Of a stretch of 64,000 nt of DNA, positions 9,000-48,295 are shown piece after piece; the first letter of the stretch is position 1, and every line of letters starts with the position of its first letter. The DNA is taken from positions 62,372,001-62,436,000 of the forward strand of contig NC_091997.1 of assembly GCF_044704955.1 (NCBI RefSeq). Reading direction: 5' to 3'. The translations under genes were made by a program, and so were the position numbers. This stretch comes from Pristiophorus japonicus (taxonomy: Eukaryota). Below the pieces are notes generated by a model, which saw nothing but the letters and a program-made list of their open reading frames with translations, had not been told where the DNA came from and did not search any database.

Positions 9000-9720
9000 C
9001 CAGTGTAGTACTGAGGGAGTGCTGCACTGTCGGAGGGGCAATACTGAGGGAGTCATCATCAAAGGCAGTCCCCCGAAATGAGGAGAGCTAGGTCTTGGTG
9101 CCGTACTGTCGGAGGGGCAGTACTGAGGGAGTGCCGCACTGTCGGAGGGGCAGTGCTGAGGGAGTGCCACACTGTCGGAGGGGCAGTACTGAGGAAGCGT
9201 TGCACTGTCGGAGGGGAAGTACTGAGGGAGTGCCGCACTGTCGGAGGGACAGTACTGAGGGAGAGCTGCACTATCAGAGGGGCAGTACTGAGGGAGAGCT
9301 GCACTGTCAGAGGGGCAGTGCTGAGGGAGTGCCACACTGTCGGAGGGGCAGTACTGAGGAAGCGTTGCACTGTCGGAGGGACAGTACTGAGGGAGAGCTG
9401 CACTGTCAGAGGGGCAGTGCTGAGGGAGAGCTGCACTGTCAGAGGCGCCGTCTGCCCCCTCAGGTGGATGTAAAAGATCCCATGGCGCTATTTCGAAGAA
9501 GAGCAGGGCCGTTCTCCCTGATGTCCTGCCCAATATTTATCCCTCAACCAACATCACTAAAATAGATTATCTGGTCATTATCACATTGCTGTTTGGGAGA
9601 CCTTGCTGTGCTATATTACAACAGTGACCACACTCCAAAAGTACTTCATTGGCTGCAAAGCACTTTGGGATGTCCAGAGGTTGTGAAAGGCACTATAGAA
9701 ATGCAAGTAATTCTTTCTAC
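9000..9720 (+). mobile_element. Deu-domain SINE (family A) with internal ~30-33-bp tandem expansion at 9001-9443
   Basis: Body caggtggatgtaaaagatcccatggc...tgtcctgcccaatattt and tail match 28308-28768. Confidence 0.9.
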
Positions 9721-10609
9721 TGTGCCTGCCTTGTATAATAATTCTTTCAACCATGCGCTCAAAATAAATGAATCATTCATATCTCTGCAAGCCTTGTTGA
9801 AAATGTTACAATATCTGCACTTCAAGTAACTTTATATCAGAAGCAGGCAAGAGCTGGCAGCAGCTTCACGCTTGCCTTTATCTGAGGTGGGGGAGTTATA
9901 GCTGTTTCTGATTGGATCAGCTCATTGCCGATTGCTTTTAATTGATCACTTTGTTGGTGGACACGAGTTTGCGTTCCATCAGTTTGGGGAAAGGAGCCCT
10001 TTACTGCCCACATGCTGCGTGAGCATTGCGGGATTATCCGTAGGCCCACGGAAAGTGTTGGGATCACACACACTGCAAGCGACTGGCGATTCCCTATTGG
10101 TGCAGATAGCCTGAGGTTGTCTGCATTAATGGACCTTTTACCTCACTTACATTTCCTCATGTTGTGTTATTCCCGGATCTGGGCTGGGCTTGTGACCTGG
10201 TTTCCCAGGGGTGGAAGAGCTCAGCAGAGGGAACCTTGCACTTCCCCCAATGACCTTCATGCAGCCCAAGCTTTCCGCTTTCAATTACTGGAGAATGTGA
10301 TTTACAAACTGCTTCAGGCTCATTTTGTACATTGCGCAGATGATGCAAATCAAGATTGCTTATTGAGGCAGATTAAAGAGCTGGCTGGTGTTCTGTTAGT
10401 CCATTGGAAATATCGTCCTGCCTTTCGAATGTGTCGTCGTAGGACCTGAATCCCTTACCGTGAGTGAGGGATACGTACAGTACATTACGTTGTCAGATAT
10501 TTTGCTTCAAATACATTTCTCTTTCCAATTTTAAAACAGAAATTGCTGGCAATACATAGCAGGTCAGCAGGAGAAAAGTCGTGTTAATGCTTAGTCTGTC
10601 ACTGCCAAG

Positions 10610-13600
10610 GTCCGAGGTTCCTATGTGCCTCTCTTGGCAACCTACGAAGGGCCCATCGAGGCACTCCTCGCTGCCTGCTTACACCCCAATTGTCCCATCC
10701 TACCCTCTCGCCAACCTTCCCACTCAGCGCACCCACTGGGGGCTAATCTTGCCAATCTCCTCCCAATCCAACTCGCCCCCCCAGAGCTGACCCTGTGGAC
10801 GCTGGCAGTGGGTCAGCCGTCACCGACCCTCTGCACGTCCGTTCGCTTGCGAACAAGGCCCTTACCATTCCTGAGCTTCTCGTGGATGATGGCATCGACA
10901 TCGTGGCCCTGACGGAAACCTAGTTGGGGGACGATGACACCTTACCCTTAAACGAAGCCTCCTCGCCTGGCTATACCTTCCATCACTTACCCCGCTCAGA
11001 TCGCCGTGGTGGTGGTGTGGCTCTTATCACCAAATCACACCTTGGTCTGTCCCCCTACTCTTCCGACACTTTCTCTTCCTTTGAGCATCTCACCCTATTC
11101 CACCCCTCTCACCTCTCATTTACAACTCTCATTCTCTACCGCCCACCCAAGTAGCATAACAATGTTGTTGCCGCTATTTCTTCACTAGTTTCCTCCTTCT
11201 GCTTCTGCACCGAACAACTTCTCATCCTCTGTGATTTCAACCTCCATCTCAACTCACCATGCTCTCTCTCCTCTGAGGTCACTAGCCTCCTATCCTCCCT
11301 TAACCTCGCCCTCCATGTAAACTCCCCAATCCATATTCACGGCCACCCCCTCGACCTTGCCATCTCTCATGGCCTCGCTACTCCCATCGTGTCAATCACA
11401 GCTAAGGCCATCTCTGACCACTTCCTCGTATCGTTCTCCACCACATCCCCCTTCCACCCCACCCCCCCAAACCCTACCTCCTCCTGTATCGGCCCCTGGG
11501 AAAAAGCTCTCTCCCCATTCTCTTACAACTGAACTTATCAACTCCCAAGTGTCCAGCCTGTGGCCCTCCATTCACCATGACATTTCTATAGCTACCGACC
11601 TGCTCAGTCACACCCTCACCACCACCTTTGATGCCTAGTCCCTTTTAAAACAATTACTCTCACCCTGGCCGTACCCCTGTACAGCACTGATCTTCGCTCC
11701 CTTAAGTCCAAGGGACATAGACTTGAAAGGATATGGCGGAGAACTGGTTTGGCCATTCACCGCCAGATCTACTGGGCCACATAAAGTACTATCGGGTCCT
11801 GCTCTTGTCTGCCAAAATCGCTCACTATTCCAGAATCATTCTGGAATAAAGATAACCCCCAGCTTCTATTCTCCACTGCTAACCATCTTTTTAAACCCCT
11901 CTCCCCAGTCTCCACCCTCACCACCGACAATAAGTGTGAGGAGCTCATGGACTTCTTTGTCTTCAAGATTGAGACCATCCATTCGGCCACCTCTGCCTCT
12001 TCCCTTCTTTCCCCTAGACCACCGGGCCAAACTTCCTCGAAGGTTCCCCCCCGCATTAGCCCTGACCTCACTTCTTTCTCCAGTTTCTCTCCGATTTCCC
12101 CTCATGACCTTTCCGAGCTCATCCTGTCCATGAGACCCACTTCCTGCTCCCTTGACCCTATTCCCACCAAACTGCTGACCACCCAACTTCCTTGTCTGAC
12201 TCCCATGTTAGCCGACATTGTTAATAGTTCGCTCTCCTCAGGTACTGTCACCATGTCCCTCAAATCTGCCGTCATCACCCCTCTCAAAAAACCAACCCTC
12301 GACCCCTCCGTCCTTGAAAACTACCGCCCCATCTCCAATTTCTCGTTCCTCTCCAAAGTCCTTGAACGTGTTGTTGCCTCCCATATCTTTCCCACAATTC
12401 CATGTTTGAATCCCTCCAATCCGGTTTCCGAGCTGCCACAGTAACAAAATGGCCCTCTTCAAAGTCACAAATGACATCCTTTGTGACTGTAACAAAGGCA
12501 AACTATCCCTCTTCGTCCTTCTTGACTTGTCTGTAGCCTTTGACACGGTTGACCACTCTATCCTTCTCCAACGCCTCTCCATCATCGTCCAGCTGGGTGG
12601 GACTGCACTCGCCTGGTTCCATTCTTATCTGTCTAATCGTAGCCTGCAATGGCTTCTCTTCCTGCCCCCACATCATTACCTCTGGTATCCCCCAAGGATC
12701 TATTCTTGGCCCTTCCTATTTCTCATCTACATGTTGCCCCTTGGTGACATCATCTGGAAACACACGGAGTCAGTTTCCACATGTACGCTGATGACACCCA
12801 GCTCTACCTCACCACCACTTCTCTCGACCCCTCCTCGGTCTCTAAATTGTCAGACTGCTTGTCCGACATCCAGTTCTGGATGAGCAGAAGTTTTCACCAA
12901 TTGAATATTGAGCAGACTGAAGCAATTGTTTTCAGTCCCTGCCACAAACTCGGTTCCCTAGCCACTGACTCCATCCCTCTCCCCAACTTCTGAGACTGAA
13001 CCACAGTGTTTGCAACCTTGGTGTCATATTTGACTCTGAAATGAGCTCTCGACCACATATCCGCAGCATAACTAAAACCGCCTATTTCCACCTCTGTAAC
13101 ATCGCCCGTCTCTGCCCCTGCCTCAGCTTATCCGCTGCTGAAGCCTTCATCCATGCCTTTGTTACCTCTAGACTTGACTATTCCAACGCACTCCTGGCTG
13201 GCCTCCCACATTCTACTCTACGTAAACTTGAGGTGATCCAAAACTCGGCTGCCCCGTGTCCTAACTTGCACCAAGTCCCGCTCACCCATCACTCCTGTGC
13301 TCGCTGACCTACATTGGCTTCTGGTTAAGCAGTGCCTTAATTTCAAAATTCTCATCCTTATTTTTAAATTCCCTCTATGGCCTGGCCTCTCCCTATCTCT
13401 GTAATCTCCCCCAGCCCCATTGCCCCCTGAGATGTTTGTGCTCTTCTAATTCTGCCCTCCTGAGCATCCCTGATTATAATCACTCCACCATCGGTGGCTT
13501 AAGCTGCCTGGGTCCCAAGCTCTGGAACTCCCTCCCTAAACCTCTCCGCCTCTCTATCTGTCCTTCATCCTTCAAGACACTCCTTAAAACCTACCTCTTT

Positions 13601-13775
13601 GACCAAGCTTTTGGTCACCTGCGCTAATTTCTACTTATGCGGCTCGGTGTCAAATTTTTATCACATAATACTCCTGTGAAGCGCCTTGGGACATTACACT
13701 ATGTTAAGGCTCGAGGGGCTGAATGGCCTACTCCTGCTCCTATTTCTTATGTTCTTATATAAATACAAGTTGTTA
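10610..13775 (+). mobile_element. L2 LINE, near-complete decayed ORF2 (AP endonuclease + RT)
   Basis: ALTET, GGGVAL, YRPP, DFN, SDH motifs; NYRPISN, LDLSVAFDTVDH, PQGSILGP, YADDTQLY, SRLDYSNALL; many stops and frameshifts. Confidence 0.93.
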
Positions 13776-14094
13776 TTTTCCATCACTGCCAGGGTCTGAC
13801 CAGATGGCTGCGTATCTCCAGCATGCCGGTGTTTATCTCTGCTCACTAGCTAGTTTGAACTTAAAAGGATTAACAACAAATTCCATTGACATTTGTGGCT
13901 GGGCTACTGGTTAATCAAGAGATTTCGTTCATGTAACACCAAATAGCCTCCTCTGTCCACACAGAAATCTCATGGGCACCTTGACGCAGCTTTGGTCAAT
14001 ATCTGGCCAATCACAGGTGCACTTGTGGGTGTAACCATGTTGGTGATTGAATTCCAGATTTTAGCACTGGCATTGAAGAAATCCCACAGTTAGA

Positions 14095-14875
14095 TCAATG
14101 AACTGGTCAGGTGGGCAGAACAGAATTCATTCCGGAGAAGTGTAAGGTAATGCTAACAAGGCAAGGGGATACACAATAAATGGTAGGACACTGAAGTGTA
14201 GAGGAACAGACCTTGGAGTGCATGTCCACAGATCCCTGAAGGTCGCAGGCCAGGTAGATAAGGTGGTTAAGGAGGCATATGGAATACTTGCCTTTATTAG
14301 CTGAGGTATAGAATACAAGAGCAGGGAGGTTATGCTTGAACTGTATAAAACACTGGTTAGGCCACAGCTAGAATCCTGCATGCAGTTCTGGTCGCCACAT
14401 TACAGGAACGATGTGATTGCAGTAGAGAGGGTACAGAGGAAATTTACAAGGATGTTGCCTGGACTGGAGAGTTTTAGCTCTGAGGAGAGATTGGATAGGC
14501 TGGGGTTGGTTCTTTTTGGAACAGAGGAGGCTGAGGGGAGATCTTATTGAGGTGTATAAAATTATACGGGCCTATTTCCCTTAGCAGAGGGGTCAAGAAC
14601 CAGGGGGCATAGATTTAAAGTAATTGGGAGGAGGTTTAGAGGGGATTTATTTTTACAGAGGGTGGTGGGGGCCTGGAATTCACTGCACTGAAATGGTGGA
14701 GGCAGGAATCCTCACTGCATTTAAAGGACTTGGATGTGCATTTGAAGTGCCATATCCTACAAGGCTATGGACCAATAGCTGGAAAGTGGGATTAGGCTGG
14801 ATAGCTCTTTGTCAGCCAGCACGGATACGATGGGCTGAATGGTCTCCTTCCGTGCTGTAAATTTCTATGATTCTA
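14095..14875 (+). mobile_element. CR1 LINE 3' fragment
   Basis: LELYKTLVRPQLESCMQFWSPHY; ttctatgattcta tail. Confidence 0.92.
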
Positions 14876-15404
14876 AAGTGCATGCTGAAAGGAGATAACA
14901 TATTGTTTGGACAAGAGGAGAAATAGTGTGTCCTGTTGTATTAAATTTGTTTTTAATTCACTTCCTGTGGAATTCCCTGGATTATTTAAAGCTGACAGTG
15001 GTTGGAGATTGCCAGCCAGGAAATGGCAGTGCAGAACAAGCAAGCACTGCGAATACTACACTGCATCTTTGCCACTGTGCACCTTCTCTCAAAAAAGAAC
15101 GAAAGTAAATGTTCCCTGTTCCCACTACCAGGTGGAAGTAATGTGGACCATTCACCCGGGTTTGAGCCTGTAATCGTGCAGTTCCCCAATGGCTCGGAGT
15201 TTATCCAGCGAGTTCCTGGGCTTTGGTGTTTGCTGCGTTAGGATGCATTTAAGGAGCGTGTCACTAGGATTCTAGCTTGGTTGCAGTGGCAGGGAGTGGG
15301 GACCCCCTAGGATTGGGCATTGCATGAAGCAAAACTCGCACAGTGCGACATAGGTTTAACCAGTGCATGGGTCCCCTTTGCTGGAGCGGCGCTCTCTGTA
15401 TGGT

Positions 15405-16773
15405 AAACATCTGTGGTTGGTAAAATGTTGGAGTCCATTATTAAAGAAGTAGTAGCAGGACATTTGGAAAAGCAAAATTTGGTCAGCATGGGTTTATGAA
15501 GGGGAAGTCATGTTTGACAAGTTTGCTGGAGTTCTTTGAGGATGTAACGAACAGGGTGGATAAAGGGGAACCAGTGGATGTGGTGTATTTGGACTTCCAG
15601 AAGGCATTTGACAAGGTGCCACATAAAAGGTTACTGCACAAGATAAAAGTTCACAGGGTTGGGGGTAATATATTAGCATGGATAGAGGATTGGCTAACGA
15701 ACAGAAAACAGAGTCGGGATAAATGGTTCATTCTCTGGTTGGCGACCAGTAACTAGTGGGGTGCCGCAGGGATCAGTGCTGGGACCCCAACTATTTACAA
15801 TCTATATTAACGACTTGGAAGAAGGAACTGAGTGTAACGTAGTCAAGTTTGCTGACGATACAAAGATTGGAGAAAGGGTAATGTGTGAGGAGGACACAAA
15901 GGGGCTGCAGGAGGACATAGACAGGCTAAGTGAGTGGGCAAGAATTTGGCAGATGGAGTATAATGTTGGAAAATTGAAGTCATGCACTTTGGCAGAAAAA
16001 ATTCAAAGAGCAAGTTATTATTTAAATGGTGATTGATTGCAAAGTGCTGCAGTACAGTGGGACCTGGGGGTACTTGTGCATGAAACACAAAAGGATAGTA
16101 TGCAGGTACAGCAAGTGATCAGGAAGGCCAATGGTATCTTGGCCTTTATTGCAAAGGGGATGTAGTATAAAAGCAGGGAAGTCTTGTTACAGCTGTACAG
16201 GGTATTGGTGAGGCCACACCTGGAGTACTGCGTGCAGTTTTAGTTTCCATATTTACGAAAGGATATACTTGCTTTGGAGGCAGTTCAGAGAAGGTTCACT
16301 CGGTTGATTCCGGGGATGAGGGGGTTGACTTATGAGGAAAGATTGAGTAGGTTGGGCCTCTACTCATTGGAATTCAGAAGAATGAGAGGTGATCTTATAA
16401 AAACGTATAAGATTATGAGGGGGCTTGACAAGGTGGATGCAGAGAGGATGTCTCCACTGATGGGGGAGACTAGAACTAGAGGGCATAATCTTAGGATATG
16501 GGGCCGCCCATTTAAAACAGAAAGGAGGGGAAATTTCTTCTCTCAGAGGGTTGTGGATCTGTGGAATTCACTGCCTCCGAGAGCTGTGGAATAAATTTAA
16601 GCCAGAAATAGACAGTTTCTTAAACGATAAGGGAATAAAGGGTTATGGGGAACGGGCAGGGAAGTAGAGCTGAGTCCATAATCAGATCAACCATGTCTTA
16701 CTGAATGACGGAGCAGGCTCAAGGGGCCGTATGGCCTACTCCTGCTCCTATTTCTTATGTTCTTACGTTCTTA
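15405..16773 (+). mobile_element. CR1 LINE, RT through 3' tail
   Basis: KSCLTSLLEFFE, YLDFQKAFDKVPH, PQGSVLGP, FADDTK; (ttcttatg)n tail. Confidence 0.95.
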
Positions 16774-27934: not shown

Positions 27935-28926
27935 TTTTGTACAGTTTTGGTCTCCTTACCTAAGGAAGGATATACCTGCCATAGAGGGAGTGCAACAAAG
28001 GTTCACCAGATTGATTCCTGGGATGGAGGGATTGCCCTATGAGGAGAGATTGAGTAGACTAGGCCGATATTCTCTAGAGTTTAGAAGAATGAGAGGTGAT
28101 CTCATTGAAACATACAAAATTCTTCCAGGGCTTGATGGGGTAGATGCAGGGAGGATGTTTCCCCTGGCCAGTGAGCCAGGGGTCACTGTCTCAGAATAAG
28201 GGATCCAGCATTTAGGACTGAGATGAGGAGAAACTTCTTCACTCGGAGGGTTGTGAATCTTTGGAATTCTCTGCCCCAGAGAGCTGTGGAGGCTCAGTCT
28301 TTGAGTAGTGTCAGCTACGGCTCAGTGGGCAGCACTCGCCTCTGAGTCAGAAGGTTATGGGTTCAAGTCCCACTCCAGAAACTTGAGCACAAAAATCTAG
28401 GCTGACACTCCCAGTGCGGTGCTGAGGGCGCACTGCACTGTCGGAGGTGCTGTCTTTCGGATGAGACGTTAAACCGAGGCCCCGTCTGCTCTCTCAGGTG
28501 GACATAAAAGATCCCACGGCACTATTTCGAAGAAGAGCAGGGGAGTTCTCCCCAGTGTCCTGGCCAATATTTATCCCTCAATCAACATAACACAAAAAGA
28601 TTATCTGATCATTATCACATTGCTGTTTGTGGGAGCTTGCTGTGCATAAATTGGCTGCCACATTTACCACATTACACTCCAAAAGTACTTCATTGTCTGT
28701 AAAGTGCGATGAGACATTCGGTGGTGGTGAACGGTGCTATAGAAATGCAAGTCTTTCTTTTCTTTTCAATATTCGAGACAGAGATTGATAGCTATTTGGA
28801 TATTACGGGAATCAAGGAATATGGGGATAGTGCAGGAAAGTGGAGTTGAGGTAGAAGATCAGCCATGATTTTATTGGAGCAGGCGCGAGGGGCCGAATTG
28901 CCTACTCCTGCTCCTATTCTGTTCTT
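27935..28926 (+). mobile_element. CR1 LINE 3' fragment interrupted by a SINE
   Basis: RFTRLIPGM..YEERLSRLG; CR1 sequence breaks at ~28307 and resumes at ~28769. Confidence 0.9.
28308..28768 (+). mobile_element. Full-length tRNA-derived Deu-domain SINE (family A, SacSINE1-like)
   Basis: Pol III A-box-like ggctcagtggg, B-box ggttcaagtcc, Deu-like core gtcggaggtgctgtctttcggatgagacgttaaaccgagg, L2-like tail gctatagaaatgcaagt(cttt)n. Confidence 0.88.
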
Positions 28927-30734: not shown

Positions 30735-33038
30735 TTATCTATCCAAACCTCGTAAAGTGCTTCAGACAGTGAATTGCTCAGAAGTTCAGTGACGATTGCG
30801 ATGTAAACAGAAACTGTAGCAATTCTGTGCATGGTGTGAACCCACAATAGCAGTAAAATGAATGCCCAGCGAATCTGTTTTTTGCTGGTGTGGGTTAAGG
30901 GAAGAATGTTGGCCAGGACACTGGTGGGGTGCCCTGCTCCTCATCAATTAATGTCCTGGAACCATTAATATCCACCTGAAGGGCGGCAGGTTAACATCTC
31001 GCTGAGAAACGGCACCTTCCAAAGTGCAGCACTCCCTCAGCACTGCACTGTATCACTCCCTCAGCACTGCACTGTATCACTCCCTCAGCACTGCACCACA
31101 GCACTCCCTCAGCACTGCACTGTATCACTCCCTCAGCACTGCACTGTATCACTCCCTCAGCACTGCACCACAGCACTCCCTCAGCACTGCACTGTATCAC
31201 TCCCTCAGCGCTGCACTGTATCACTCCCTCAGCACTGCACCACAGCACTCCCTCAGCACTGCACTGTATCACTCCCTCAGCGCTGCACTGTATCACTCCC
31301 TCAGCACTGCACTGTATCACTCCCTCAGCACTGCACTGTATCACTCCCTCAGCACTGCACTGTATCACTCCCTCAGCGCTGCACTGTATCACTCCCTCAG
31401 CACTGCACTGCAGCACTCCCTCAGCACTGCACCACAGCACTCCCTCAGCACTGCACTGTATCACTCCCTCAGCGCTGCACTGTATCACTCCCTCAGCACT
31501 GCACCACAGCACTCCCTCAGCACTGCACTGTATCACTCCCTCAGCGCTGCACTGTATCACTCCCTCAGCACTGCACCACAGCACTCCCTCAGCACTGCAC
31601 TGTATCACTCCCTCAGCACTGCACTGTATCACTCCCTCAGCACTGCACCACAGCACTCCCTCAGTGCTGCACTGTATCACTCCCTCAGCACTGCACTGCA
31701 GCACTCCCTCAGCACTGCACCACAGCACTCCCTCAGCACTGCACTGCATCACTCCCTCAGCGCTGCACTGCATCACTCCCTCAGCACTGCACTGTATCAC
31801 TCCCTCAGCACTGTACTGCAGCACTCCCTCAGCACTGCACCACAGCACTCCCTCAGCACTGCACCACAGCACTCCCTCAGCGCTGCACTGTATCACTCCC
31901 TCAGCACTGTATCACTCCCTCAGCACTGCACTGTATCACTCCCTCAGCACTGCACTGTATCACTCCCTCAGCACTGCACTGTGTCACTCCCTCAGCACTG
32001 CACCACAGCACTCCCTCAGCACTGCATCAGCACTGCATCACTCCCTCAGCACTGCACTGTATCACTCCCTCGGCACTGCACTGCATCACTCCCTCAGCAC
32101 TGCACCACAGCACTCCCTCAGCACTGCATTACTCCCTCAGCACTGCACTGCAGCACTCCCTCAGCACCGCACTGTATCACTCCCTCAGCACTGCAGCACT
32201 CCCTCAGCACTGCAGCACTCCCTCAGCACTGCATTACTCCTTCATCACTGCACTGCATCATTCCCTCAGCACTGCAGCACTCCATCAGCACTGCATTACT
32301 CCCTCGTCACTGCACTGCATCACTCCCTCAGCACAGGACTGCATCACTCCCTCAGCACTGCATCACTCCCTCAGCACTGCATCACTCCCTCAGCACTGCA
32401 CTGTATCACTCCCTCAGCACTGCACTGTATCACTCCCTCAGCACTGCAGCACTCCCTCAGCACTGCAGCACTCCCTCAGCACTGCATTACTCCCTCATCA
32501 CTGCACTGCATCACTCCCTCAGCACTGCAGCACTCCCTCAGCACTGCACTGCATCACTCCCTCAGCACTGCACTGCATCACTCCCTCAGCACTGTATCAC
32601 TCCCTCAGCACTGCACTGTATCACTCCCTCAGCACAGGACTGCATCACTCCCTCAGCACTGCATCACTCCCTCAGCACTGTATCACTCCCTCAGCACTGC
32701 ACTGTATCACTCCCTCAGCACTGCACTGTATCACTCCCTCAGCACTGCAGCACTCCCTCAGCACTGCAGCACTCCCTCAGCACTGCAGCACTCCCTCAGC
32801 ACTGCATTACTCCCTCATCACTGCACTGCATCACTCCCTCAGCACTGCAGCACTCCCTCAGCACTGCACTGCATCACTCCCTCAGCACTGCACCACAGCA
32901 CTCCCTCAGCACTGCAGCACTCCCTCAGCACTGCACTGCAGCACTCCCTCAGCACTGCACTGTATCACTCCCTCAGCACAGGACTGCATCACTCCCTCAG
33001 CACTGCATCACTCCCTCAGCACTGCATCACTCCCTCAG
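30735..33038 (-). mobile_element. Decayed Deu-domain SINE whose hairpin segment is expanded to a 2-kb array (31024-33038, 24- and 19-bp units)
   Basis: ttggccaggacact...ccctgctc...tccacctga...ggcacc leads into (actccctcagcactgcactgtatc)n. Confidence 0.85.
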
Positions 33039-38262: not shown

Positions 38263-38844
38263 TAATGAGCCTGTGTGTATCGCCCTGTCTGCATACTATC
38301 CCTGCAGGAGCTGGCTCTTTACTGCCTTGCTGCGATCCATTGTATATTAAGTGAGTTTGCACAGGGTCCTCGGTCCACTCCTGCACACCGAACCAACCTC
38401 CTGCAGCTCAAATCCCTTTGCCAGTTCAGAATGCCCAGCGCAGCCTCCAGCAAAAAAAGGGAGGCAGGGCATGTTTTTTCAGTGAAGGTTTTGAGTAGTT
38501 TTGAGCCGGGGGGGGGGGGGGGGGCGCGGGGGTGGGGGAGAGGTGAGGAGTTACATAGTTTTTTGGCCGAATGAGTTAGAGTACGAGACAGTACGATGAC
38601 TCCTGATTTGATGCAATCCATCCATAGAACTCGATCTTACAATACCACAAACTCTCACTGTCTCATCAGCTGAATCGGATGTGATGGGTAGAAGTGGCCT
38701 GAAGGAAGGAGAGCCCTTTAATTCAGTCAGCTGCGAATCACAGCAAGACACTGTCCCTTTTGTGAAGTGTGTAAGTGACCCAGTTTTCTGAGCAGGCCCC
38801 AGTCCTGGTCCAAACTCTTTTACATTGTTATTAAAAGTCTCAGC

Positions 38845-39800
38845 CTTAGCTCATGGGTAACTCTCTCACCCCTAAATCAGAAGGTTGTAGGTTTAAGTCC
38901 CACTCCAGAGCCTTGCATGACACTCCAGTGCAGTACTGAGAGAGCGCCGCACTGTCGGAGGGGCAGTACTGAGGGAGTGCCGCACTGTCGGAGGGGCAGT
39001 GCTGAGGGAGTGCCGCACTGTCAGAGGGGCAGTACTGAGGGAGCGCCGCACTGTCGGAGGGGCAGTACTGAGGGAGTGCCGCACTGTCGGAGGGGCAGTA
39101 CTGAGGGTGCGTCGCACTGTCGGTGGGGCAGTACTGAGGGAGCGCCGCACTGTCGGAGGGGAAGTACTGAGGGATTCCCGCACTGTCGGAGGGGGAGTAC
39201 TGAGGGAGTGCCGCTCTATCGGAGGGGCAGTACTGAGGGAGCGCCGCACTGTCGGAGGGGAAGTACTGAGGGATTCCCGCACTGTCGGAGGGGCAGTACT
39301 GAGGGAGTGCCGCACTATCGGAGGGGCAGTACTGAGGGAGTGCCACACTGTCGGAGGGGCAGTACTGAGGGAGCGCCGCACTGTCGGAGGGGCAGTACTG
39401 AGGGAGCGCCGCACTGTCGGAGGGGCAGTACTGAGGAAGCGCCGCACTGTCGGAGGGGCAGTACTGAGGGAGTGCTGCACTGTCGGAGGGGCAGTACTGA
39501 GGGAGTGCTGCACTGTCGGAGGGGCAGTACTGAGGGAGTGCTGCACTGTCGGAGGGGCAGTACTGAGGGAGTGCTGCACTGGCGGAGCTGTCGTCTTTTG
39601 GATGAGGCCCTGTTTTCCCTCTCGGATGGATGTAAAACATCCCATAGTGCTATTCGAAGAAGAGCAGGGGAGTTATCCATGACCAAAATTTCTCCTTCAA
39701 CCAGCACCAGATCTTGTAATACCAATTCTGGCCACAGCCCGTGACTGTCCTCCGAAACCGATCCATTGGGTGTGAAGTGCTTTGAAAGGCGTTATTTAAT
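38845..39800 (+). mobile_element. Deu-domain SINE with internal ~33-bp tandem expansion (38927-39590)
   Basis: Head cagaaggttgtaggtttaagtcccactccag, array, then gtcttttggatgag...ttcgaagaagagcagggg. Confidence 0.9.
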
Positions 39801-39829
39801 AATTTATTTATTTTATTTAAACTGTCATG

Positions 39830-40029
39830 NNNNNNNNNNNNNNNNNNNNNNNNNNNNNNNNNNNNNNNNNNNNNNNNNNNNNNNNNNNNNNNNNNNNNNN
39901 NNNNNNNNNNNNNNNNNNNNNNNNNNNNNNNNNNNNNNNNNNNNNNNNNNNNNNNNNNNNNNNNNNNNNNNNNNNNNNNNNNNNNNNNNNNNNNNNNNNN
40001 NNNNNNNNNNNNNNNNNNNNNNNNNNNNN
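39830..40029. other. Assembly gap, 200 N
   Basis: Run of N with a round length, likely a placeholder size. Confidence 0.99.
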
Positions 40030-40060
40030 TCTCTCACATTCAGCACTGGACACTCAATTC

Positions 40061-40509: not shown

Positions 40510-40581
40510 TTAGATGTATAACGGTGTTTCTTGTCCAGTCAGGAGTCGGAACATGGCTGCTGGCATCGTCTTCATGTGGAT
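40510..40581 (-). CDS. APBA2: APBA2 last coding exon (IHMKTMPAAMFRLLTGQETPLYI*)
   Basis: tag acceptor, 23 codons + TAA; C-terminus matches recalled APBA2/Mint2. Confidence 0.97.
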   Translation of the reverse strand: MHMKTMPAAMFRLLTGQETPLYI

Positions 40582-40868
40582 CTAAGATTATTAAGAATTC
40601 AGTAATTAAAAATTACAACTTAAATATACCTATTTATTGCTGGGAGTGGGGGGGTGGGGAGGGGGGCTGGAGGCTGACGCAGGCTTTAAAAAGTGAATGG
40701 ATCTCCTGTGGATTTGCTGTTTGGCGACGGGATTGTTTGATCGTGTAGTTCCGAATCTTTATAAAACGAAACAGTACAAAGTTAAATAAGTAAACCTTCT
40801 GGAGTTAAAGCTGATCTCATAGATCTGGACGTTGTATCAGAGAGGCTCTTCCCATCAATGGGTCTTAC

Positions 40869-41009
40869 CTCACCCACAGAGTTCGACAGCGCCTGAACGA
40901 TCTTTTCATGGGCAGTTGCCACGACACTCTGCCCGTTGATCTCGATGATACGGTGACCCACTCGGACTCCACCACGCTCCGCAATCCCACCTCGCATCAG
41001 GCTGCAGAT
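40869..41009 (-). CDS. APBA2: APBA2 exon, PDZ2 ([14 protein letters not shown]...LSNSVGE)
   Basis: 141 bp, AG/GT boundaries, phase 0, Mint PDZ2 sequence. Confidence 0.97.
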
Positions 41010-41632
41010 CTGGAATAACAAACAGCCGTCACTGCCAATCCCTGGCTGTCCTCACACCTCCATCAAACGCCGCACAGACAGGACACATTAGAAACACTCA
41101 GACCGACGCTCCCCAGTTGCCTTGTGTTGAGGGAGATTGGCACGGCACTGAATCATTGATCACCATCTCAGCTCCAGATGTGATTATTGCAGACGGAATT
41201 CTCTCAGTATCCCAGCACCAGAAGTTTAACGCAATTAAATAATAGGAATAATAGCAAATTTGGAATTTAACCAGACAGATCCCGCTGTCAGTGAGCAGTG
41301 GCCACATCTGTCTTCTCCACAATTCCTACAGATCCCGGCTGCTCTTTTGTGTCACTTTCAGTATAATGAAATAGTTTAATGGAACTGAAAATGGGATTCT
41401 ACACAGCAAATAGAGCCTGTGACTCGTACATCCCACTCTGAATGCCAACTCAAACTGCTGCAACTGAACAGAAAAAGCAATTACAGGATGGCAGGCTCAA
41501 TGGGATTTTTTGTGGCAGATTCACAGATACTGTGAACCACACATTCCTCTCACGATGCTTGTCTGCTCTGCAATTTGCCCCAGTAGTCACCCAGGTCATC
41601 AGTACAATTTTAACAGAGCAGTGTGAAAGCTA

Positions 41633-41925
41633 GGGTAGCAGAGAAAAGCTCCCTCTACACTGTCCCATCAAACACTCCCAGGGCAGGTACAGCACGGGGT
41701 TAGATACAGAGTAAAGCTCCCTCTACACTGTCCCATCAAACACTCCCAGGGCTGGTACAGCACGGGTTAGATACAGAGTAAAGCTCCCTCTACACTGTCC
41801 CATCAAACACTCCCAGGGCTGGTACAGCACGGATTAGATACAGAGTAAAGCTCCCTCTACACTGTCCCATCAAACACTCCCAGGGCTGGTACAGCACGGG
41901 TTAGATACAGAGTAAAGCTCCCTCC
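41633..41925. repeat. Minisatellite, 67-bp unit (gggttagatacagagtaaagctccctctacactgtcccatcaaacactcccagggctggtacagcac)
   Basis: About 4 copies; same unit as 63162-64000. Confidence 0.96.
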
Positions 41926-42570
41926 ACATCAGAACTCAAGCAGTACACACAATGCTGCATATTTTGGATGCTGCTCTGTTTTTAGAGGGACTGCTCACAC
42001 CAACGGAGTTTGTACTTTTAAAATGTGTCTCAGGATCAAGTAAACCTGGAGCAATATTGAGCTTGAACAGGCAGCAGGAAGAGAGAGCAGAGGGGCAGAG
42101 ACGGGAACAAAGAGGCGTCTGGGGCCAGGACATTGGGACTCATTTAGGAAACAGCTGGATGCTGTGATAAGGAGGCAGTCGGGTTGTTATTGTGAAGCGA
42201 TGAGATGAAATGGGCTAACAGACATGAGCTTGCTGTTTTAGAATGTTGTACTCCTGCAATATTCTTTACGTCAGTTATCTGTTTGCACTCCATTGGGACC
42301 ACTGACTAGATAATTTCACTGAATGCCTGCAAGTTTCAGTTTAAACTTCAAAGAACAGAGGTGAAAGGTTGACTATGTAATAGGTCAAAGTGCAATGCGA
42401 TAAACACCCAGCCGAGCAGACTGGTTAGTGTTTGGTCGCAGGTTGTTTATCTGTCGCTGGGTTTTATAGATCGTTTTTCTCCTTTCAAACATTAAATTCA
42501 TTGGTTGGAATCCAATGCATGGAATCTGATATTGTAAACCCAGTCCGCCCATACACCTGCTGTAGCCTCT

Positions 42571-42589
42571 CACTGCCACCTGCTGGTCA
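42571..42589 (-). promoter_or_regulatory. Candidate CTCF motif TGACCAGCAGGTGGCAGTG
   Basis: Close match to the CTCF core consensus CC(A)SYAGRKGGCRS; motif only, binding unproven. Confidence 0.5.
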
Positions 42590-42629
42590 TTCTGTACAAT
42601 ACACTCAGCCAAAATAACCTCACCACAAA

Positions 42630-42972
42630 TACAGCACAGAAACAGGCCATTTCAGCCACCAGCCCATGCTGCTGCTCCACTCAAGCCTTCTCCCATTCTT
42701 CCTCATCTAACTCAATCACATTACCATCTATTCCCTTCTCCCTCGTGTGTGTATCTAGTTTCCCCTTAAATGCATCTATGCCATTGGCCTTAACCACCCC
42801 ACCTGTGGCAGCGAATTCCACGTGCTCACCACTCTCTGGGTAAATATCCCCATTTGATTTCTTGGTATTGAGACCAATTCTGGGCCCAGAAGGATGTCAG
42901 AGGCTTGGAGAGGGTGGAGAGATTTACTGGAATGGTCCCAGAGATGAGGAACTTCAGTTAAATGGAGAGACT
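42630..42972 (-). mobile_element. Old CR1 3' fragment (-) joined to a short CR1 piece in + orientation (~42871-42972)
   Basis: Similar to the reverse of 25885-26140; + piece aaggatgtc..ttggagagggt..atggtcccagagatgagg. Confidence 0.7.
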
Positions 42973-43316
42973 ATTACAGAGAGATATTAGTGCATGCGTG
43001 ACTTTCCTTGCACAGCATTTTAATGGACAGCATCCACATTTAAATAAGTGAACAATATCTCCATGAAAGTACCGGCTAAGTGACTAACAAACGAGAAACT
43101 AGCCAACAATTCTCGTACACCAATACCGGATATTAATACACGCACTGTCCCTGCAGGGCTGCTCACAACAGCTTATGAAGAGCCAGGGAGATCACATGAT
43201 GGTGCAGGTAGAGAGAGAAATTTTATTTCCTTAAAGATAGATGAACAGAGCCCTGTGAAGGAATGCATCATCAGCCTCCGCGAACAAGAAGAATCTGCAG
43301 CAGTGATGTCTGGAGC

Positions 43317-43334
43317 TGCCAGCAGAGGGCGGTG
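43317..43334 (+). promoter_or_regulatory. Candidate CTCF motif TGCCAGCAGAGGGCGGTG
   Basis: Close match to the CTCF core; motif only. Confidence 0.5.
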
Positions 43335-43537
43335 CCGCCCCGTGAGTCAAGGCTCCTCTCACTCAGTCTGAGGTGCTAATTGGCAGAGTACAGAGAAGGT
43401 TACGCAGGCCCCATTAACCCAGGTAAGAGTCTGGGACAATTCAATCACTCACATCTCGAGATTCGATAGAACAGCGAGAGTGCAAATCTGTTAACAGCAT
43501 GAAATGAGAACCGCAGGAGTTCAAAACATTTAAACAA

Positions 43538-43952
43538 GTGTTAGCCGTGGCTCAATTCTTGGCGCACTCGCCTCAGAGTAAAAAGGTCGTGAGTTCAAGT
43601 CCCACGCTAGAGATTTGAGCACAATCCAGGCTGACACTCCCAGTGCAGTACTGAGGGAGCGCCGCACTGTCGGAGGGGCAGTACTGAGGGAGTGCCGCAC
43701 TGTCGGAGGGGCAGTATTGAGAGAGGAGCCGCACTGTCGGAGGGGCAGTACTGAGGGAGCGCCGCACTGTCGGAGGGGCAGTACTGAGGGAGCGCCGCAC
43801 TGTCGGAGGGGCAGTACTGAGGGAGCGCCGCACTGTCGGAGGGGCAGTACTGAGGGAGCACCGCACTGTCGGAAGGGCAGTACTGAGGGAGCGCCGCACT
43901 GTCGGAGGGGCAGTACTGAGGGAGCGCCGCATTGTCGGAGGGGTGGTACTGA
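43538..43952 (+). mobile_element. Deu-domain SINE 5' half ending in a ~33-bp tandem array
   Basis: Head gtgttagccgtggctcaa...gagttcaagtcccac...ggctgacactcccagtgcagtactgagg, then about 9 units. Confidence 0.9.
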
Positions 43953-44012
43953 GTGAGTGTTTATATTGGCGGCCCAGTATTTACAGATCATGGCCGGGCT
44001 CCCTGTACTCAC

Positions 44013-44132
44013 AATGCCGTTCTGTACACTGAAGCCCAGCTGGTACTTGAGGTCGGGCCGTTTGATGAGCACGGTGGTGACAGGCGGGCAGCTCACAATG
44101 TTCAGCTTAACCTGAACCTGATTCTTCAAACC
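44013..44132 (-). CDS. APBA2: APBA2 exon, PDZ1-PDZ2 junction ([20 protein letters not shown]...FSVQNGI)
   Basis: 120 bp, cag acceptor, gtgagt donor. Confidence 0.97.
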
Positions 44133-44686
44133 CTGGAAAACAAGAAACATTGTTAAATCACCAGGAGTGGAGGGTCTGAAACATCGACCTCAGGGACTCC
44201 CAGGATCAATCCCAAATCTCATCTGGGGCTAAACTACAAGGGTTAGAGGTCATCTCGTCCCTGGGCTGAGCAACTGATCACTGTGGGTGTGAGGGAGTCT
44301 CTGGGTTTGTATGTTTGTGCACACGAGACTGAGCGAGCGACAGAGCGAGCGCGAGTGACTGTGAGTGTGAGTGAGTGAGTGAGTGACTGAGAGTGATGTG
44401 TGAACACGTGAGTAATGGGCATGGGTGAGCTTCTCAATGGGCCCCAACAGACAGCACCCTCAGAACAGGTGGACGGTCACTTGAGGGAGGGAAGGGAGTT
44501 CAGGACAGCTTGACCGTCTCAGACCACGGTTGGGGGGGGGGGGTGTCAATCAGGGACACGTGACTCACGATCAAATTGCACCAATTATCCTGCCTCCTCT
44601 CCACTGACCGGATTTAAGCCGAGCACTCGGAGCACAGGGTACAGTATAACTATCATCCCTTGTACACGTCAGGCAGTAGGTGGTAC

Positions 44687-44899
44687 CTTAATTATTCCTT
44701 GGCAGGTGGCGAGTGGAAGGCCGACCAAGCTGGTGCCGTTGATGGACATGATCTGGTCTCCGATACTCAGCTTCCCCGAGCGAGCGGCCGGGCCGCCATT
44801 CATCATGTTTGCCAGGATAACGGTGGGGAGGATTGACCCCCACCCCGACTCCACAATCACAACCCCGAAGATCTCCCCCTTCAGCTTCTCCACGTGTAG
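44687..44899 (-). CDS. APBA2: APBA2 exon, PDZ1 ([33 protein letters not shown]...CQGIIK)
   Basis: 213 bp, AG/GT boundaries, Mint PDZ1 signature [11 protein letters not shown]. Confidence 0.97.
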
Positions 44900-45027
44900 C
44901 TGTGGAAACAGTGAGGGAAGGGAAGCCCAACAGGTACTGGGTATCAGTCATTCACAACCTCATTATAGTTAACAGCTACTCAGTGTCTTCATCCTCTTTA
45001 ACAACAACCTCGAGGCAAATGGGAGAA

Positions 45028-45275
45028 GGCGCAGGGTCAGGGGTCGGGTGCAGGGTCAGGGGGCGGGCGCGGGGTCGGTCGGGGGGCGGGCGCAGGGTCG
45101 GTGCAGGTCGGAGGTCGGCGCAGGGTGGGTGCAGGGTCGGGGGTCGGCGCAGGTCGGAGGTCGGCGCAGGGTCGGGGGGCGGCGCAGGGTCGGGTGCAGG
45201 GTCAGGGGGCGGGGTTGGTCGGGGGGCGGGCGCAGGTCGGAGGTCGGCGCAGGGTCGGAGGTCGGCGCAGGGTGT
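45028..45275. repeat. G-rich low-complexity repeat (ggcgcagggtc)
   Basis: Degenerate tandem units. Confidence 0.8.
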
Positions 45276-45414
45276 GGCTATTTTAAACGGCTGGCCGAGT
45301 TATGGAGTGATTTGAAACTAAGGACAAAGTGTGTCAGGGTTGTGTGTCGGAGTGAGCAGCTCGGGGCCGCGAGGACACCGCAGGAATGGGAGGCGGCTTG
45401 GATTTTGTCGATGT

Positions 45415-45560
45415 CGAGCTGAAGGAGGTTTTGAAATCAAGGCAGTCAGAATCTGAGACGGGGCGGGGGAGACGCTGACTCTGTGAATACAGACAATGTC
45501 ACCAAGGGGTAACATGTCGACAGTACATGGTAGCAGCCTGAGGATTTGGCCCGAGGCTGG
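45415..45560 (-). mobile_element. Highly decayed L2 RT fragment
   Basis: MLPLGDIV motif, as at 12730-12755. Confidence 0.55.
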
Positions 45561-46239
45561 AGAGATGGACGGGGTGAGGGGGGAGGTGGGGAGCTGAGGG
45601 GGAGAGGGATTCCTCCAGTACTCAACTCAACACTGCTCCAATACCTACTTTACTCTCTTTATTGGGACTAACCAGAAGCCACCCCTGCTGGTGGGCTGGT
45701 GGTGAACACACTGGGAGGGATAGGAGCAGGACGGTGAGTGTGTGTGGCTGTGCTGACTGGACGATGGGGATTAACTGAGGGTCAAAGTGGCTAAAAAGGT
45801 CATGGAAGGTGAGGAGAGCCTCAAAGCACCCTGGAGTGAAAGGGCGGGTTCAAGGGCAGCAAGAAAAGAGAGGGTTCAGGGTGGGTTTGAAAGGAGGGGA
45901 GGGGGGCCGACAGTGGAGACCATCGCAAGGCGAGAGAGAAATATTGATGTCAGTGAGCATGGGCCAAGGGATGGGCTGTGACTCAGAGCAGGGCCCAAAG
46001 GGGCCATTTCACTCGGAACAGGCCCCAGAAAGGTTGGTACCACACTGGGGTCAGGGCAGCTCCTCTGGGACTCTGCTAACACACACTGTCGAGTGGAGGA
46101 AGTTTGACCCTAATGGGGGTCGTGTAATGGGGGGGAGGGAGGGGGGCGCGTGTGATTGGGACGGCGCACAATGGGGTGGGGGTGGGGGGGGGGCGTGCAA
46201 TGGGGGCAGACGTGCTCCACGCGGGACAGGCCAACACAC

Positions 46240-46419
46240 CTCCTTGCAGTTGGCGGAGTTAGAGAAGTGGATGAGGTCATCGTTGTACATCTCCTGCGTG
46301 TTGATGATGTCACTGTACTCCTTTTGGCTGAGGTCCTCGGGGTTAATCCCATTGGCTCGCAGGAACTCTTGGTAGGCCACACTAAACGCCTGTCCAATGG
46401 ACTGAGCTATCAGTTGTGC
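46240..46419 (-). CDS. APBA2: APBA2 exon, PTB C-terminal helix and linker ([24 protein letters not shown]...NCKE)
   Basis: 180 bp, AG/GT boundaries, phase 0. Confidence 0.97.
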
Positions 46420-47028
46420 CTGCAAAGATACAAGACATGTCACTAAACACAACATTTCCACAATAATGTCGCAGTTCACAGCCTGAGAGCGGATGTGGTA
46501 CATTCCTGAGGCCCACAGACTGGATCAATCCCTCGCCCTCATTCACTCAGCCACTCACTCAACAATCAGTGGCCCTAAATGTAATCAAATATTTAATAAT
46601 AGCCAGCAGTGTGGAGGTCCCCGGGATTTACACGTGCGCTGTGGAATTGACCCACTGTACAAGGACCAGGCTGTCTCCCAGAGAGCTGATCGGCTGCAGC
46701 AGCTGCACGCAGTGTTCCACATGGCCCGTTCTGGATTTGCAGAATCAACCAGAATTCCACATCCCATCACTGACCGTGAGTGTGGGCGCAAGGCCAGGTG
46801 ACCGGCACCGACCGTGACCTGCACCAACCGTGACCGGCACCGACCGTGAGCGACACCGGCACTAACCGTGAGCGACACCGGCACTGACCGTGAGCGGCAC
46901 TGACCATCAGCGTGAGGCCAGATACACCACGATGGAATGCCTTGCTGACATGCCACATTCTCATTGCCTGTGGGGCTGTAACCGAGCAGGAGGCAGAGGG
47001 AAATGGGAACAGCTCTCCTCATACTCAC

Positions 47029-47214
47029 ATCCTCAGACTCGAAGACGTGGCACACCATCTTGTACTGCTTCTTGCCCTCCTGCGTCCCGGGTGTGGTCTC
47101 GATACAATCCTGGGAGGCAGCCCGAGGCACGCGCCGCCGAGCCATCAGAACAACAATATTCCCGATATCAGCAATGTAGGAGATTGTGCGCAGGGCATGG
47201 TCCATCATCGGCTC
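47029..47214 (-). CDS. APBA2: APBA2 exon, PTB ([18 protein letters not shown]...CHVFESED)
   Basis: 186 bp; segment [19 protein letters not shown] favours APBA2 over APBA1/3. Confidence 0.97.
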
Positions 47215-47481
47215 CTGGAACAAGACATACACTGGGATTAGTAGCTGCTGACAGTTCCCACACACCACAGCCCTTAACCAATGGGCTTAGAGAAATATCA
47301 GAGCCTCTTATAACAGCATAAGAAATAGGAGCAGGAGTCGGCCATTATCCTGAGACTTTGCCCCCTGGTTCTAGGCTCTCCGTTACCCTGGACCCGCAGC
47401 TCCCTCTGCCCGAGGAGCACAGGTCAGTCCAGGAACTGATGGTCATTTCTTCTACTATTCTGTAGGTTGACAGTAAACAAT

Positions 47482-48295
47482 GTGTCAGCCTGGCTCAGTC
47501 AGGAGCACTCTCACCTGAGACTGGAGCACGAAATCCAGGCTGACAACTCAGTGCAGCACTGAGGGAGCGCCGCACTGTCGGAGGGGCAGTACTGAGGGAG
47601 AGCCGCACTGTCGGAGGGGCAGTACTGAGGGAGAGCCGCACTGTCGGAGGGGCAGCACTGAGGGAGCGCCGCACTGTCGGAGGGGCAGTACTGAGGGAGA
47701 GCCGCACTGTCGGAGGGGCAGTACTGAGGGAGAGCCGCACTGTCGGAGGGGCAGCACTGAGGGAGCGCCGCACTGTCGGAGGGGCAGTACTGAGGGAGAG
47801 CCGCACTGTCGGAGGGGCAGTACTGAGGGAGAGCCGCACTGTCGGAGGGGCAGTACTGAGGGAGCGCCGCACTGTCGGAGGGGCAGTACTGAGGGAGAGC
47901 CGCACTGTCGGAGGGGCAGTACTGAGGGCGAGCCGCACTGTCGGAGGGGCAGCACTGAGGGAGTGCCGCACTGTCGGAGGGGCAGGACTGAGGGAGTGCC
48001 GCACTGTCGAAGGGGCAGCACTGAGGGAGTGCCGCACTGTCGGAGGGGCAGTACTGAGGGAGAGCCGCACTGTCGGAGGGGCAGCACTGAGGGAGTGCCG
48101 CACTGTCGGAGGGGCAGCACTGAGGGAGAGCCGCACTGTCGGAGGGGCAGCAGAGGGAGTGCCGCACTGTCGGAGGGGCAGCACTGAGGGAGCGCCGCAC
48201 TGTCCGAGGGGCAGTACTGAGGGAGAGCCGCACTGTCGGAGGGGCAGTACTGAGGGAGAGCCGCACTGTCGGAGGGGAAGAACTGAGGGAACGCC
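47482..48295 (+). mobile_element. Deu-domain SINE 5' part with ~33-bp tandem array (47550-48290)
   Basis: gtgtcagcctggctcagt...aatccaggctgaca head, then more than 20 units. Confidence 0.9.

What the first reader, a model, noticed from the sequence alone, without database searches (positions are those of the whole stretch)
9001..48295. One hairpin segment of the Deu-domain SINE has expanded into tandem arrays at five separate loci
Seen: the unexpanded SINE at 28308-28768 holds one copy of cagtgcggtgctgagggcgcactgcactgtcggagg. The same segment is amplified inside SINE copies at 9001-9443, 38927-39590, 43645-43950 and 47550-48290 (~33-bp unit), and at 31024-33038 (24/19-bp units, opposite strand). 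The first unit, cagtgcagta-ctgagggag-tgctgcactg, is a ~10-bp-stem hairpin. Different unit lengths, diagnostic variants and flank decay argue for repeated local expansion after insertion. Inference: the SINE distributes a structure-prone seed for minisatellites, which could contribute to intron and genome expansion. Repeat-seeded minisatellites are known in general (e.g. rodent LTR-derived arrays); I do not know whether this case is described.
Basis: partly seen in the sequence, partly recalled or inferred. Interest (0 to 1): 0.7.

Follow-up and report, generated by a model that had tools for sequence, protein, structure and literature searches.

The report
Shark SINE invaded by shared minisatellite
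A common jumping DNA element, likely from a shark, carries the same 33-base piece repeated in tandem at an estimated tens of thousands of places, mostly near chromosome ends; the repeats share a tell-tale letter and look much younger than the elements that hold them, so they likely arose once and likely spread between old copies by recombination instead of being re-invented in each copy.

Summary
Observation confirmed; interpretation only partly. Four window arrays repeat one 33-bp segment of a 468-bp tRNA-headed SINE (likely SacSINE1-type, shark). They are not independent hairpin slippage. The junction base is G in 178,865 of 185,257 exact genome-wide matches, while the SINE has T at both parent sites, and seven other organisms share the G. 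Internal units have lost the hairpin. Only the 24/19-bp array is a private origin (23 of 23 hits at this locus). Arrays are zoned: on one chromosome arm 0 of 20, 2 of 20 and 11 of 15 copies are expanded, moving outward. Host flanks are as old as unexpanded copies (6.6% each), but internal units are 2.2% from the global unit. Two-unit copies are rare. Best reading (about 0.5): one founder array, spread into resident SINEs by ectopic recombination in chromosome-end-type domains. A composite subfamily is not excluded (AU p = 0.13). The family is roughly 0.3% of the genome. It works like squamate SINE-derived satellites. This scan noted the same family earlier on other DNA of this genome.

The parts
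28308..28768 (+). Full, unexpanded tRNA-headed SINE (likely SacSINE1/Deu type)
   Evidence: 85-88% identical full-length matches genome-wide, 40 scored of 5,379 candidates; A- and B-box-like motifs in the consensus
28412..28447 (+). Single copy of the source segment: hairpin (consensus 107-135) and the 33-bp unit (consensus 110-142)
   Evidence: (z -3.2 DNA, -3.1 RNA)
9001..9097 (+). First unit and start of the second, then a foreign ~45-bp piece; SINE head absent
9098..9445 (+). 33-bp array, about 10 units, G junctions
9446..9716 (+). 3' SINE body of the same copy
30861..31029 (-). Last source segment and old 3' SINE body (76% to consensus) behind the 24/19-bp array
31030..33038 (-). 24/19-bp array from the same segment in another register; independent, private origin
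   Evidence: its junction word occurs 23 times in the genome, all here
38837..38928 (+). Decayed SINE head
38929..39588 (+). 33-bp array, 20 units: T at entry, G at all 19 junctions, T at exit
39589..39690 (+). Partial 3' SINE body
43538..43643 (+). SINE head
   Evidence: consensus 1-110, 87%
43644..43957 (+). 33-bp array, about 9 units, no 3' body; intronic in a minus-strand PTB-PDZ-PDZ gene
47482..47551 (+). SINE head with internal deletion
47552..48290 (+). 33-bp array, 22 units, no 3' body

Best explanation
The four 33-bp arrays belong to a genome-wide minisatellite family that sits at one fixed site inside an old SINE; it likely arose once, long ago, and likely spreads and is homogenised by recombination between SINE copies in chromosome-end-type domains. 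Shown: fixed register; a shared junction G absent from the SINE; strong zoning; old hosts with young internal units; rare two-unit copies; the same family in seven other organisms. Inferred steps: (1) a founding duplication used the short near-repeat that lies 33 bp apart across the hairpin and gained the junction G; (2) a break in or near a resident SINE is repaired from an array-bearing copy (DNA, or cDNA of its transcript), which pastes in several units while the host keeps its own entry, exit and flanks; (3) arrays then change length locally by unequal exchange; (4) this happens mainly where recombination is presumed high. The 24/19-bp array is a separate, local birth that did not spread. 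No function is implied.
For: Single origin (about 0.9): junction G in 178,865 vs 6,392 A/C/T matches and 22,184 vs 251 T for the other allele class. Single-unit copies have T at the entry in 94% of 35 unbiased copies and at the exit in 36 of 43; arrays keep T at the exit in 26 of 32. No other base reaches 5% at the junction in contigs of 8 of 8 organisms laid. Transfer between loci: flanks of 56 array copies and 49 single-unit copies are both 6.6% from consensus, whereas in 50 arrays internal units are 2.2% off against 6.7% for their own flanks, and 47 of 50 array consensuses equal the global unit at 22 sites against 26% of 43 single units. Neutral local evolution since insertion predicts about 6%. 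First and last units are older, 4.5% and 5.3%. Arrays occur with both alleles at all 19 polymorphic flank sites. No reservoir of short arrays where the SINE is common: 0 of 20 proximal copies expanded and no two-unit copy among 55 on the C2 transect; a natural two-unit query found one other full-length two-unit copy among 40 scored of 768 candidates. Loss of head and loss of tail are symmetric, 16 vs 15 of 82, unlike retro-truncation. The base after the junction is T in 92% and 95% of laid depth in organisms E and F, 2-10% in the other six; here that form has 4,160 matches, and in the arrays I sampled it is mixed into G arrays.
Against: The flank tree is star-like and does not reject one clade of array-bearing copies (AU p = 0.132), and the array label is clustered (19 changes vs 27.2 shuffled, 1 of 500 as low). 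Arrays are enriched for one set of flank alleles (6 of 19 sites at uncorrected p < 0.03), which a composite subfamily would also give. Arrays of the same region are no more alike than distant ones (p = 0.53, 72 arrays), so there is no sign of neighbour-biased exchange. Selection for pure units inside each array could keep units young without any transfer. The unit scan (at most 7 mismatches, exact 33-bp spacing) biases unit divergence downward. The T-form's bias to array edges is weak and post hoc (10 of 12 arrays, p = 0.02; per unit p = 0.57). Recombination rate was not measured, and the window lies inside C21 (62.4 of 95.3 Mb), not at an end. No orthologous locus was compared.
Confidence: 0.5

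Rival explanations
1. Composite subfamily: a master SINE already carrying two or more units with the G junction retrotransposed (SVA-like). Arrays then grew locally only in chromosome-end-type domains, and preference for pure units kept them near the founder sequence.
For: Explains T entry, G junctions and T exit. Array label is clustered on the tree and one clade is not rejected. Flank allele enrichment. Lineage-specific junction forms could be lineage-specific masters.
Against: No fixed flank character at 19 sites; 0 of 200 bootstrap trees hold the arrays as one clade. Short arrays are missing where the SINE is common, so near-complete collapse or purging must be added, and collapse should stall at two units. 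No 5'-truncation bias. Needs strong non-neutral unit turnover to give 47 of 50 unchanged consensuses.
Confidence: 0.33
2. One reading: the hairpin makes each SINE copy slip independently at the same near-repeat; the junction G arises again and again and is favoured, for example because it creates a G-run that promotes expansion.
For: Hairpin is real in single units. The 24/19-bp array is an independent birth from the same segment. One 5-unit array has host-type units and mixed T/G junctions (L015). G at the exit site occurs in 5 of 43 single-unit copies. A relaxed G-quadruplex motif appears in the arrays and not in the consensus.
Against: T junctions are about 1%, and those inspected mostly sit inside G arrays: 28 of 30 loci are G-majority or nearly so and none is a pure T array. 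Exit stays T in 26 of 32 arrays. Later units carry the non-host allele at base 7. The hairpin is lost in internal units. The G is shared by eight organisms.
Confidence: 0.07
3. Arrays move as free DNA (circles or copied tracts) or inside segmental duplications among chromosome-end domains, with no special role for SINE homology.
For: 12 of 82 arrays have no adjacent SINE flank; L038 and L052 are one array in two duplicated segments; a 67/68-bp minisatellite family occurs at 13 sampled places with unrelated flanks.
Against: 70 of 82 arrays adjoin SINE sequence in register on at least one side and 39 on both; outer flanks of different array loci are unrelated apart from the one pair.
Confidence: 0.1

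Closest known systems
SINE-derived satellites (sSat1-3) of squamates, especially snake sSat3 (Vassetzky et al. 2023, PMC10702118; main text parts 1-4 of 5 read; supplements not opened)
   Same: Tandem units from one part of a tRNA-SINE; thousands of loci; one dominant variant shared across a clade; units more alike than SINE copies; subtelomeric enrichment.
   Different: Different SINE and animal group; unit 33 bp against about 70-290 nt; arrays here often keep both SINE ends (39 of 82), a minor variant there; the paper does not test host age against unit age or transfer into resident SINEs in the parts read.
Mouse (GGCAGA)n VNTR family from SINE B1, Ms6-hm/Hm-2 from MaLR LTRs, Alu-derived minisatellites (seen only as table rows and references in review PMC9659126, passages)
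   Same: Retroelement-internal sequence amplified as minisatellites at many loci.
   Different: Simple 4-6-base units or varied Alu parts; the originals were not read, so their mechanism is recalled only (independent local expansion).
Non-allelic gene conversion among Alu copies (review PMC6598467, passages)
   Same: Old SINE copies take sequence from other copies; mosaics of diagnostic sites.
   Different: Described for substitutions and subfamily replacement at scattered loci, not for pasting a tandem array into tens of thousands of hosts.
SacSINE1 of cartilaginous fishes (Luchetti et al. 2017, PMC5499810, parts 1-2 of 6 read; Nishihara et al. 2016, PMC4824008, passages)
   Same: About 460-bp tRNA-headed SINE; my assignment rests on length, promoter boxes and recall.
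   Different: No internal tandem array is mentioned in the parts read; I had no reference sequence to align.
SVA composite retroposons of hominids (recalled, no call)
   Same: GC-rich VNTR inside a non-autonomous retroposon.
   Different: In SVA the VNTR travels with a young, diagnosable family; here hosts are old, not diagnosable, and unexpanded copies dominate outside the distal zone.

Membership tests
SacSINE1 / DeuSINE | tRNA-derived head with A and B boxes | tested here: met
   A-box-like motif at consensus 11 and B-box-like at 55 (motif definitions recalled). ARAGORN and Rfam gave no hit on the window copy.
SacSINE1 / DeuSINE | Central Deu domain homologous to other DeuSINEs | not testable with these tools
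   No reference sequence held; supplement of PMC5499810 unreadable. If coordinates match that paper's Table 1 (Deu homology from 124-134), the unit at 110-142 only straddles the domain's 5' edge.
SacSINE1 / DeuSINE | 3' tail shared with an L2 LINE | not tested
   Consensus ends in a short TCTT-type repeat; partner LINE not searched.
SacSINE1 / DeuSINE | Full length about 460 bp, cartilaginous-fish host | tested here: inconclusive
   Consensus 468 bp against up to 463 bp in whale shark; organisms are unnamed, shark is inferred.
SINE-derived satellites (sSat) | Tandem unit is a part of a SINE, at least four middle units, many loci | tested here: met
   85 of 218 sampled loci have 4 or more units (sample partly aimed at arrays); all map to consensus 107-156.
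SINE-derived satellites (sSat) | Terminal unit runs on into the SINE | tested here: met
   70 of 82 arrays on at least one side.
SINE-derived satellites (sSat) | Enrichment near chromosome ends | tested here: met
   15 of 18 array-exit hits vs 7 of 78 single-unit hits within 9 Mb of an end on C1-C4; interstitial clusters also exist, the window among them.
SINE-derived satellites (sSat) | Unit of about 70-290 nt from Squam1-3 | tested here: not met
   Unit is 33 bp. Works like an sSat; not a member of sSat1-3.
SVA-like composite subfamily | Array-bearing copies form one diagnosable clade | tested here: inconclusive
   No fixed site among 19; 19 changes on a star-like tree of 81 copies; AU p = 0.132.
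SVA-like composite subfamily | Array present wherever the element inserts | tested here: not met
   0 of 20 proximal copies on the C2 arm carry more than one unit; two-unit copies rare.
SVA-like composite subfamily | Excess of 5'-truncated copies starting in the array | tested here: not met
   16 without head vs 15 without body, of 82.
SVA-like composite subfamily | Target-site duplications and full-length transcripts | not tested
   Not examined; hosts are old.

The most novel reading that the evidence does not exclude
A selfish minisatellite that homes into resident SINE copies by homologous recombination, without a nuclease of its own. It has converted most copies in chromosome-end-type domains, is kept uniform across tens of thousands of unlinked loci, and lets new unit variants sweep a whole genome lineage by lineage: molecular drive among dispersed loci, with its boundary marking the recombination zone.
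Probability: 0.35. Interest if true: 0.75.

Novelty: new variant of a known kind. Interest (0 to 1): 0.5.

Why it matters
SINE-derived tandem repeats are known, so the basic phenomenon is not new. Sharks are reported to have more simple tandem repeats on short chromosomes (bioRxiv 10.1101/2022.10.17.512540, passages); this names one source family, which I did not find in print in the held library (searches; subscription journals and most supplements not covered). If transfer between loci is right, it gives an unusually clean test of concerted evolution among dispersed repeats: dated hosts, a diagnostic junction, lineage-specific variants and a sharp chromosomal boundary, all checkable in public shark assemblies. 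It does not explain shark genome size (about 17 Mb of 5.92 Gb).

Tried and rejected
Assembly support: contigs of the likely source organism (run X1) gave no cover of the unique flank at 43440-43529 and no piece spanning flank and array; no raw long reads were offered, so single array lengths are unverified. Runs X1-X4 hold 81% of the words of 38300-40000 but may be the assembly's own sample. Shares of 0.20-0.28 in other organisms were used only where laid (7 runs). Orthologous loci in other species: none recovered. Regional sharing of unit variants: none. GC-biased substitution in array flanks: none (W>S 0.042 vs 0.044); CpG retention 0.56 vs 0.50, p = 0.07. A 34-bp ancestral junction that could give both junction forms by one deletion: 0 matches in the fetched loci; dropped. 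Hairpin as the driver of expansion: rejected. G-quadruplex as driver: only a relaxed long-loop motif; untested. Rfam and ARAGORN: nothing. The 2006 DeuSINE paper could not be fetched under the id I recalled. PRDM9/minisatellite search gave only listings, none read. Similarity-picked single-unit copies were left out of allele, age and tree comparisons because they are biased toward the query; rows with under 250 filled columns or no 3' flank were left out of the tree. My checkpoint note miscounted the transect (21 and 14); the right counts are 20 and 18, and the Fisher value used 21.
Full report
1. Observation. The window is G000:C21:62,372,001-62,436,000 of a 5.92-Gb genome. The element at 28308-28768 is a dispersed repeat with many 85-88% identical full-length copies (40 scored of 5,379 candidates). 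Thirty of them give a 468-bp consensus with A- and B-box-like motifs. I call it SacSINE1-type and the animal a shark by inference from length, structure and recall; I had no reference to align. TRF confirms four 33-bp arrays and one 24/19-bp array at the stated places. The 33-bp unit is consensus 110-142; the hairpin is 107-135. All five array-bearing copies are incomplete.

2. Scale. One exact 29-base junction word occurs 178,865 times, the reversed control 0 times. Calibrated on 22 unbiased arrays (105 hits in 308 units), that is roughly 0.5 million units, 17 Mb, 0.3% of the genome, at up to about 37,000 loci; a rough figure, since some arrays run 10-25 kb. In the first sample (window neighbourhood plus 72 loci) every array of several units that aligned well to the SINE mapped to 107-156; only two 1.9-copy duplications mapped elsewhere.

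3. One origin, not many. The SINE has a short near-repeat 33 bp apart with T at both sites, so slippage would leave T at the junction. Single-unit copies have T at the entry in 94% of 35 and at the exit in 36 of 43. Arrays keep T at the entry (80% of 55) and exit (26 of 32) but have G at 92% of 1,213 internal junctions. Genome-wide the split is 178,865 G to 6,392 others, and 22,184 G to 251 T for the other allele class. Of 30 T-junction loci inspected none was a pure T array. At unit base 7, 71% of single units have G and 89% of internal units A; in 15 of 17 arrays that start with G, at least half of the later units have A. The contrast case is the 24/19-bp array: its junction word has 23 genome-wide hits, all at this locus. 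So the segment can seed an array locally, but such a birth stayed private.

4. Hairpin. It is real in the single unit (consensus z -3.4 DNA, -4.1 RNA). Mean DNA energy falls from -8.5 kcal/mol (99 single units) to -5.4 (55 first units) and -4.0 (1,131 internal units); two array units fold no better than shuffles (z +1.0). The tRNA-like arm at 50-87 is as stable (-10.6) and gave no array. The hairpin may have helped the founding event (inference); it does not maintain the arrays.

5. Zoning. On 60 ten-kb stretches along the right arm of C2, expanded copies were 0 of 20 at 346-365.5 Mb, 2 of 20 at 365.8-369.3 Mb and 11 of 15 beyond (zone limits drawn after seeing the data, and copies within a stretch are not independent). 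Independent exact-match listings agree: on C1-C4, 15 of 18 array exits but 7 of 78 single-unit copies lie within 9 Mb of an end; within the terminal 30 Mb the medians are 6.7 and 13.7 Mb, p = 2e-7. The SINE itself is scarce in interiors: 5 fragments and no source segment in 180 kb. The window is an interstitial domain of the distal type: 9 33-bp arrays and 6 single units in 464 kb, minisatellites up to 39% of 40-kb blocks. Higher recombination near shark chromosome ends is inferred in the literature, not measured (PMC13100897, passages).

6. Old hosts, young units. Non-CpG flank divergence is 6.6% for 56 array copies and 6.6% for 49 unbiased single-unit copies (p = 0.63). In 50 arrays internal units are 2.2% from the global unit against 6.7% for their flanks, with no correlation (rho -0.08); 47 of 50 array consensuses match the global unit at all 22 scored sites, against 26% of 43 single units; first and last units are 4.5% and 5.3%. 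Under neutral local evolution every unit lineage should be about as far from the founder as the host is. Either units are refreshed from other loci, or pure units are strongly favoured inside each array.

7. Clade test. Arrays carry both alleles at all 19 polymorphic flank sites but are enriched for one set (6 sites at uncorrected p < 0.03). A tree of 81 copies (43 arrays, 38 single; CpG and unit columns removed; similarity-picked copies left out) is star-like: 19 changes against 27.2 shuffled, 0 of 200 bootstrap trees with one clade, but the AU test does not reject it (p = 0.132). This test is inconclusive. Against a travelling composite: no two-unit copy among 55 transect copies; a natural two-unit query found one other full-length two-unit copy among 40 scored of 768 candidates; head loss and tail loss are equal (16 and 15 of 82). 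Against neighbour-biased exchange: same-region arrays are no more alike than distant ones (p = 0.53).

8. Other organisms. Contigs of seven other coded organisms from six studies carry the same tandem register, and no base other than G reaches 5% at the junction. The next base is T in 92% (E) and 95% (F) of laid depth and 2-10% in the other six, this genome's organism included. These are summed contig depths, not copy numbers. Here the T form has 4,160 matches, about five times the background G-to-T rate, in 12-16 of 100 arrays, mixed with G units. The family is therefore old and its junction form is uniform within lineages, as expected from homogenisation across loci, or from lineage-specific masters.

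9. Mechanism. I favour one founder array spread by ectopic recombination into resident SINEs in distal-type domains, with local length change afterwards (0.5; the single-origin part about 0.9). The composite subfamily with local growth and selection for pure units is the main rival (0.33). Movement without SINE homology (0.1) and independent hairpin slippage (0.07) fit worse. Steps shown: register, junction, zoning, age gap, rarity of short arrays. Steps inferred: the founding event, the transfer, the link to recombination.

10. Known systems and novelty. The closest system is the squamate SINE-derived satellites (PMC10702118): same logic and end enrichment, longer units, other SINEs. Conversion among SINE copies is known for Alu (PMC6598467), and B1-, MaLR- and Alu-derived minisatellites are listed in PMC9659126. 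I found no paper on this shark family in the held library; unread supplements, Repbase notes and subscription papers may describe it. Two earlier notes of this scan cover the same family in this genome: both favour a shared origin, as here; one favours a doubled parent element, which my zoning, two-unit and age tests weigh against without excluding. Verdict: real, a new variant of a known kind, interest 0.5.

Noticed in passing
window 40860-47238, minus strand: Exons of a PTB-PDZ-PDZ adaptor gene (Pfam PID and PDZ); APBA/X11-like by recall. The 43644 array lies between its PDZ exons.
   Followed up: partly
window 41639-41928 and 63163-64000: A second dispersed minisatellite family (67/68-bp unit) at 13 places in my sample with unrelated flanks and no shared host element seen.
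   Followed up: partly
window 61311-62636: A third family, another 33-bp unit, clustering with 7 further arrays in the 464-kb neighbourhood.
   Followed up: no
window 9053-9097; L116:5661: A foreign piece starting with CAT repeats interrupts the first array; a similar piece ends an array in L116 and lies at window ~33570.
   Followed up: no
L038 and L052 (C1:0.27 and 0.93 Mb): The same array-bearing SINE in two inverted duplicated segments.
   Followed up: no
G000:C3:125.56-125.59 Mb; C3:6.66-6.69 Mb; C1:6.46-6.47 Mb: Very long arrays of the same unit (10-25 kb) with higher-order patterns of unit variants.
   Followed up: no
G000:C3:229-248 Mb; C1:220-228 Mb; C21:33-34 and 62-70 Mb: Interstitial clusters of the SINE and its arrays that look like chromosome-end domains; possibly old fusion sites or assembly joins.
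   Followed up: no
L303 (C11:151.79 Mb): An old two-unit copy whose second unit has the junction form dominant in organisms E and F.
   Followed up: partly
window 204000-264000 of the joined neighbourhood, i.e. the window itself: About 30% of the window is tandem repeats of many unrelated units (67 TRF rows), against 0-9% in 17 of 18 chromosome-interior samples.
   Followed up: partly
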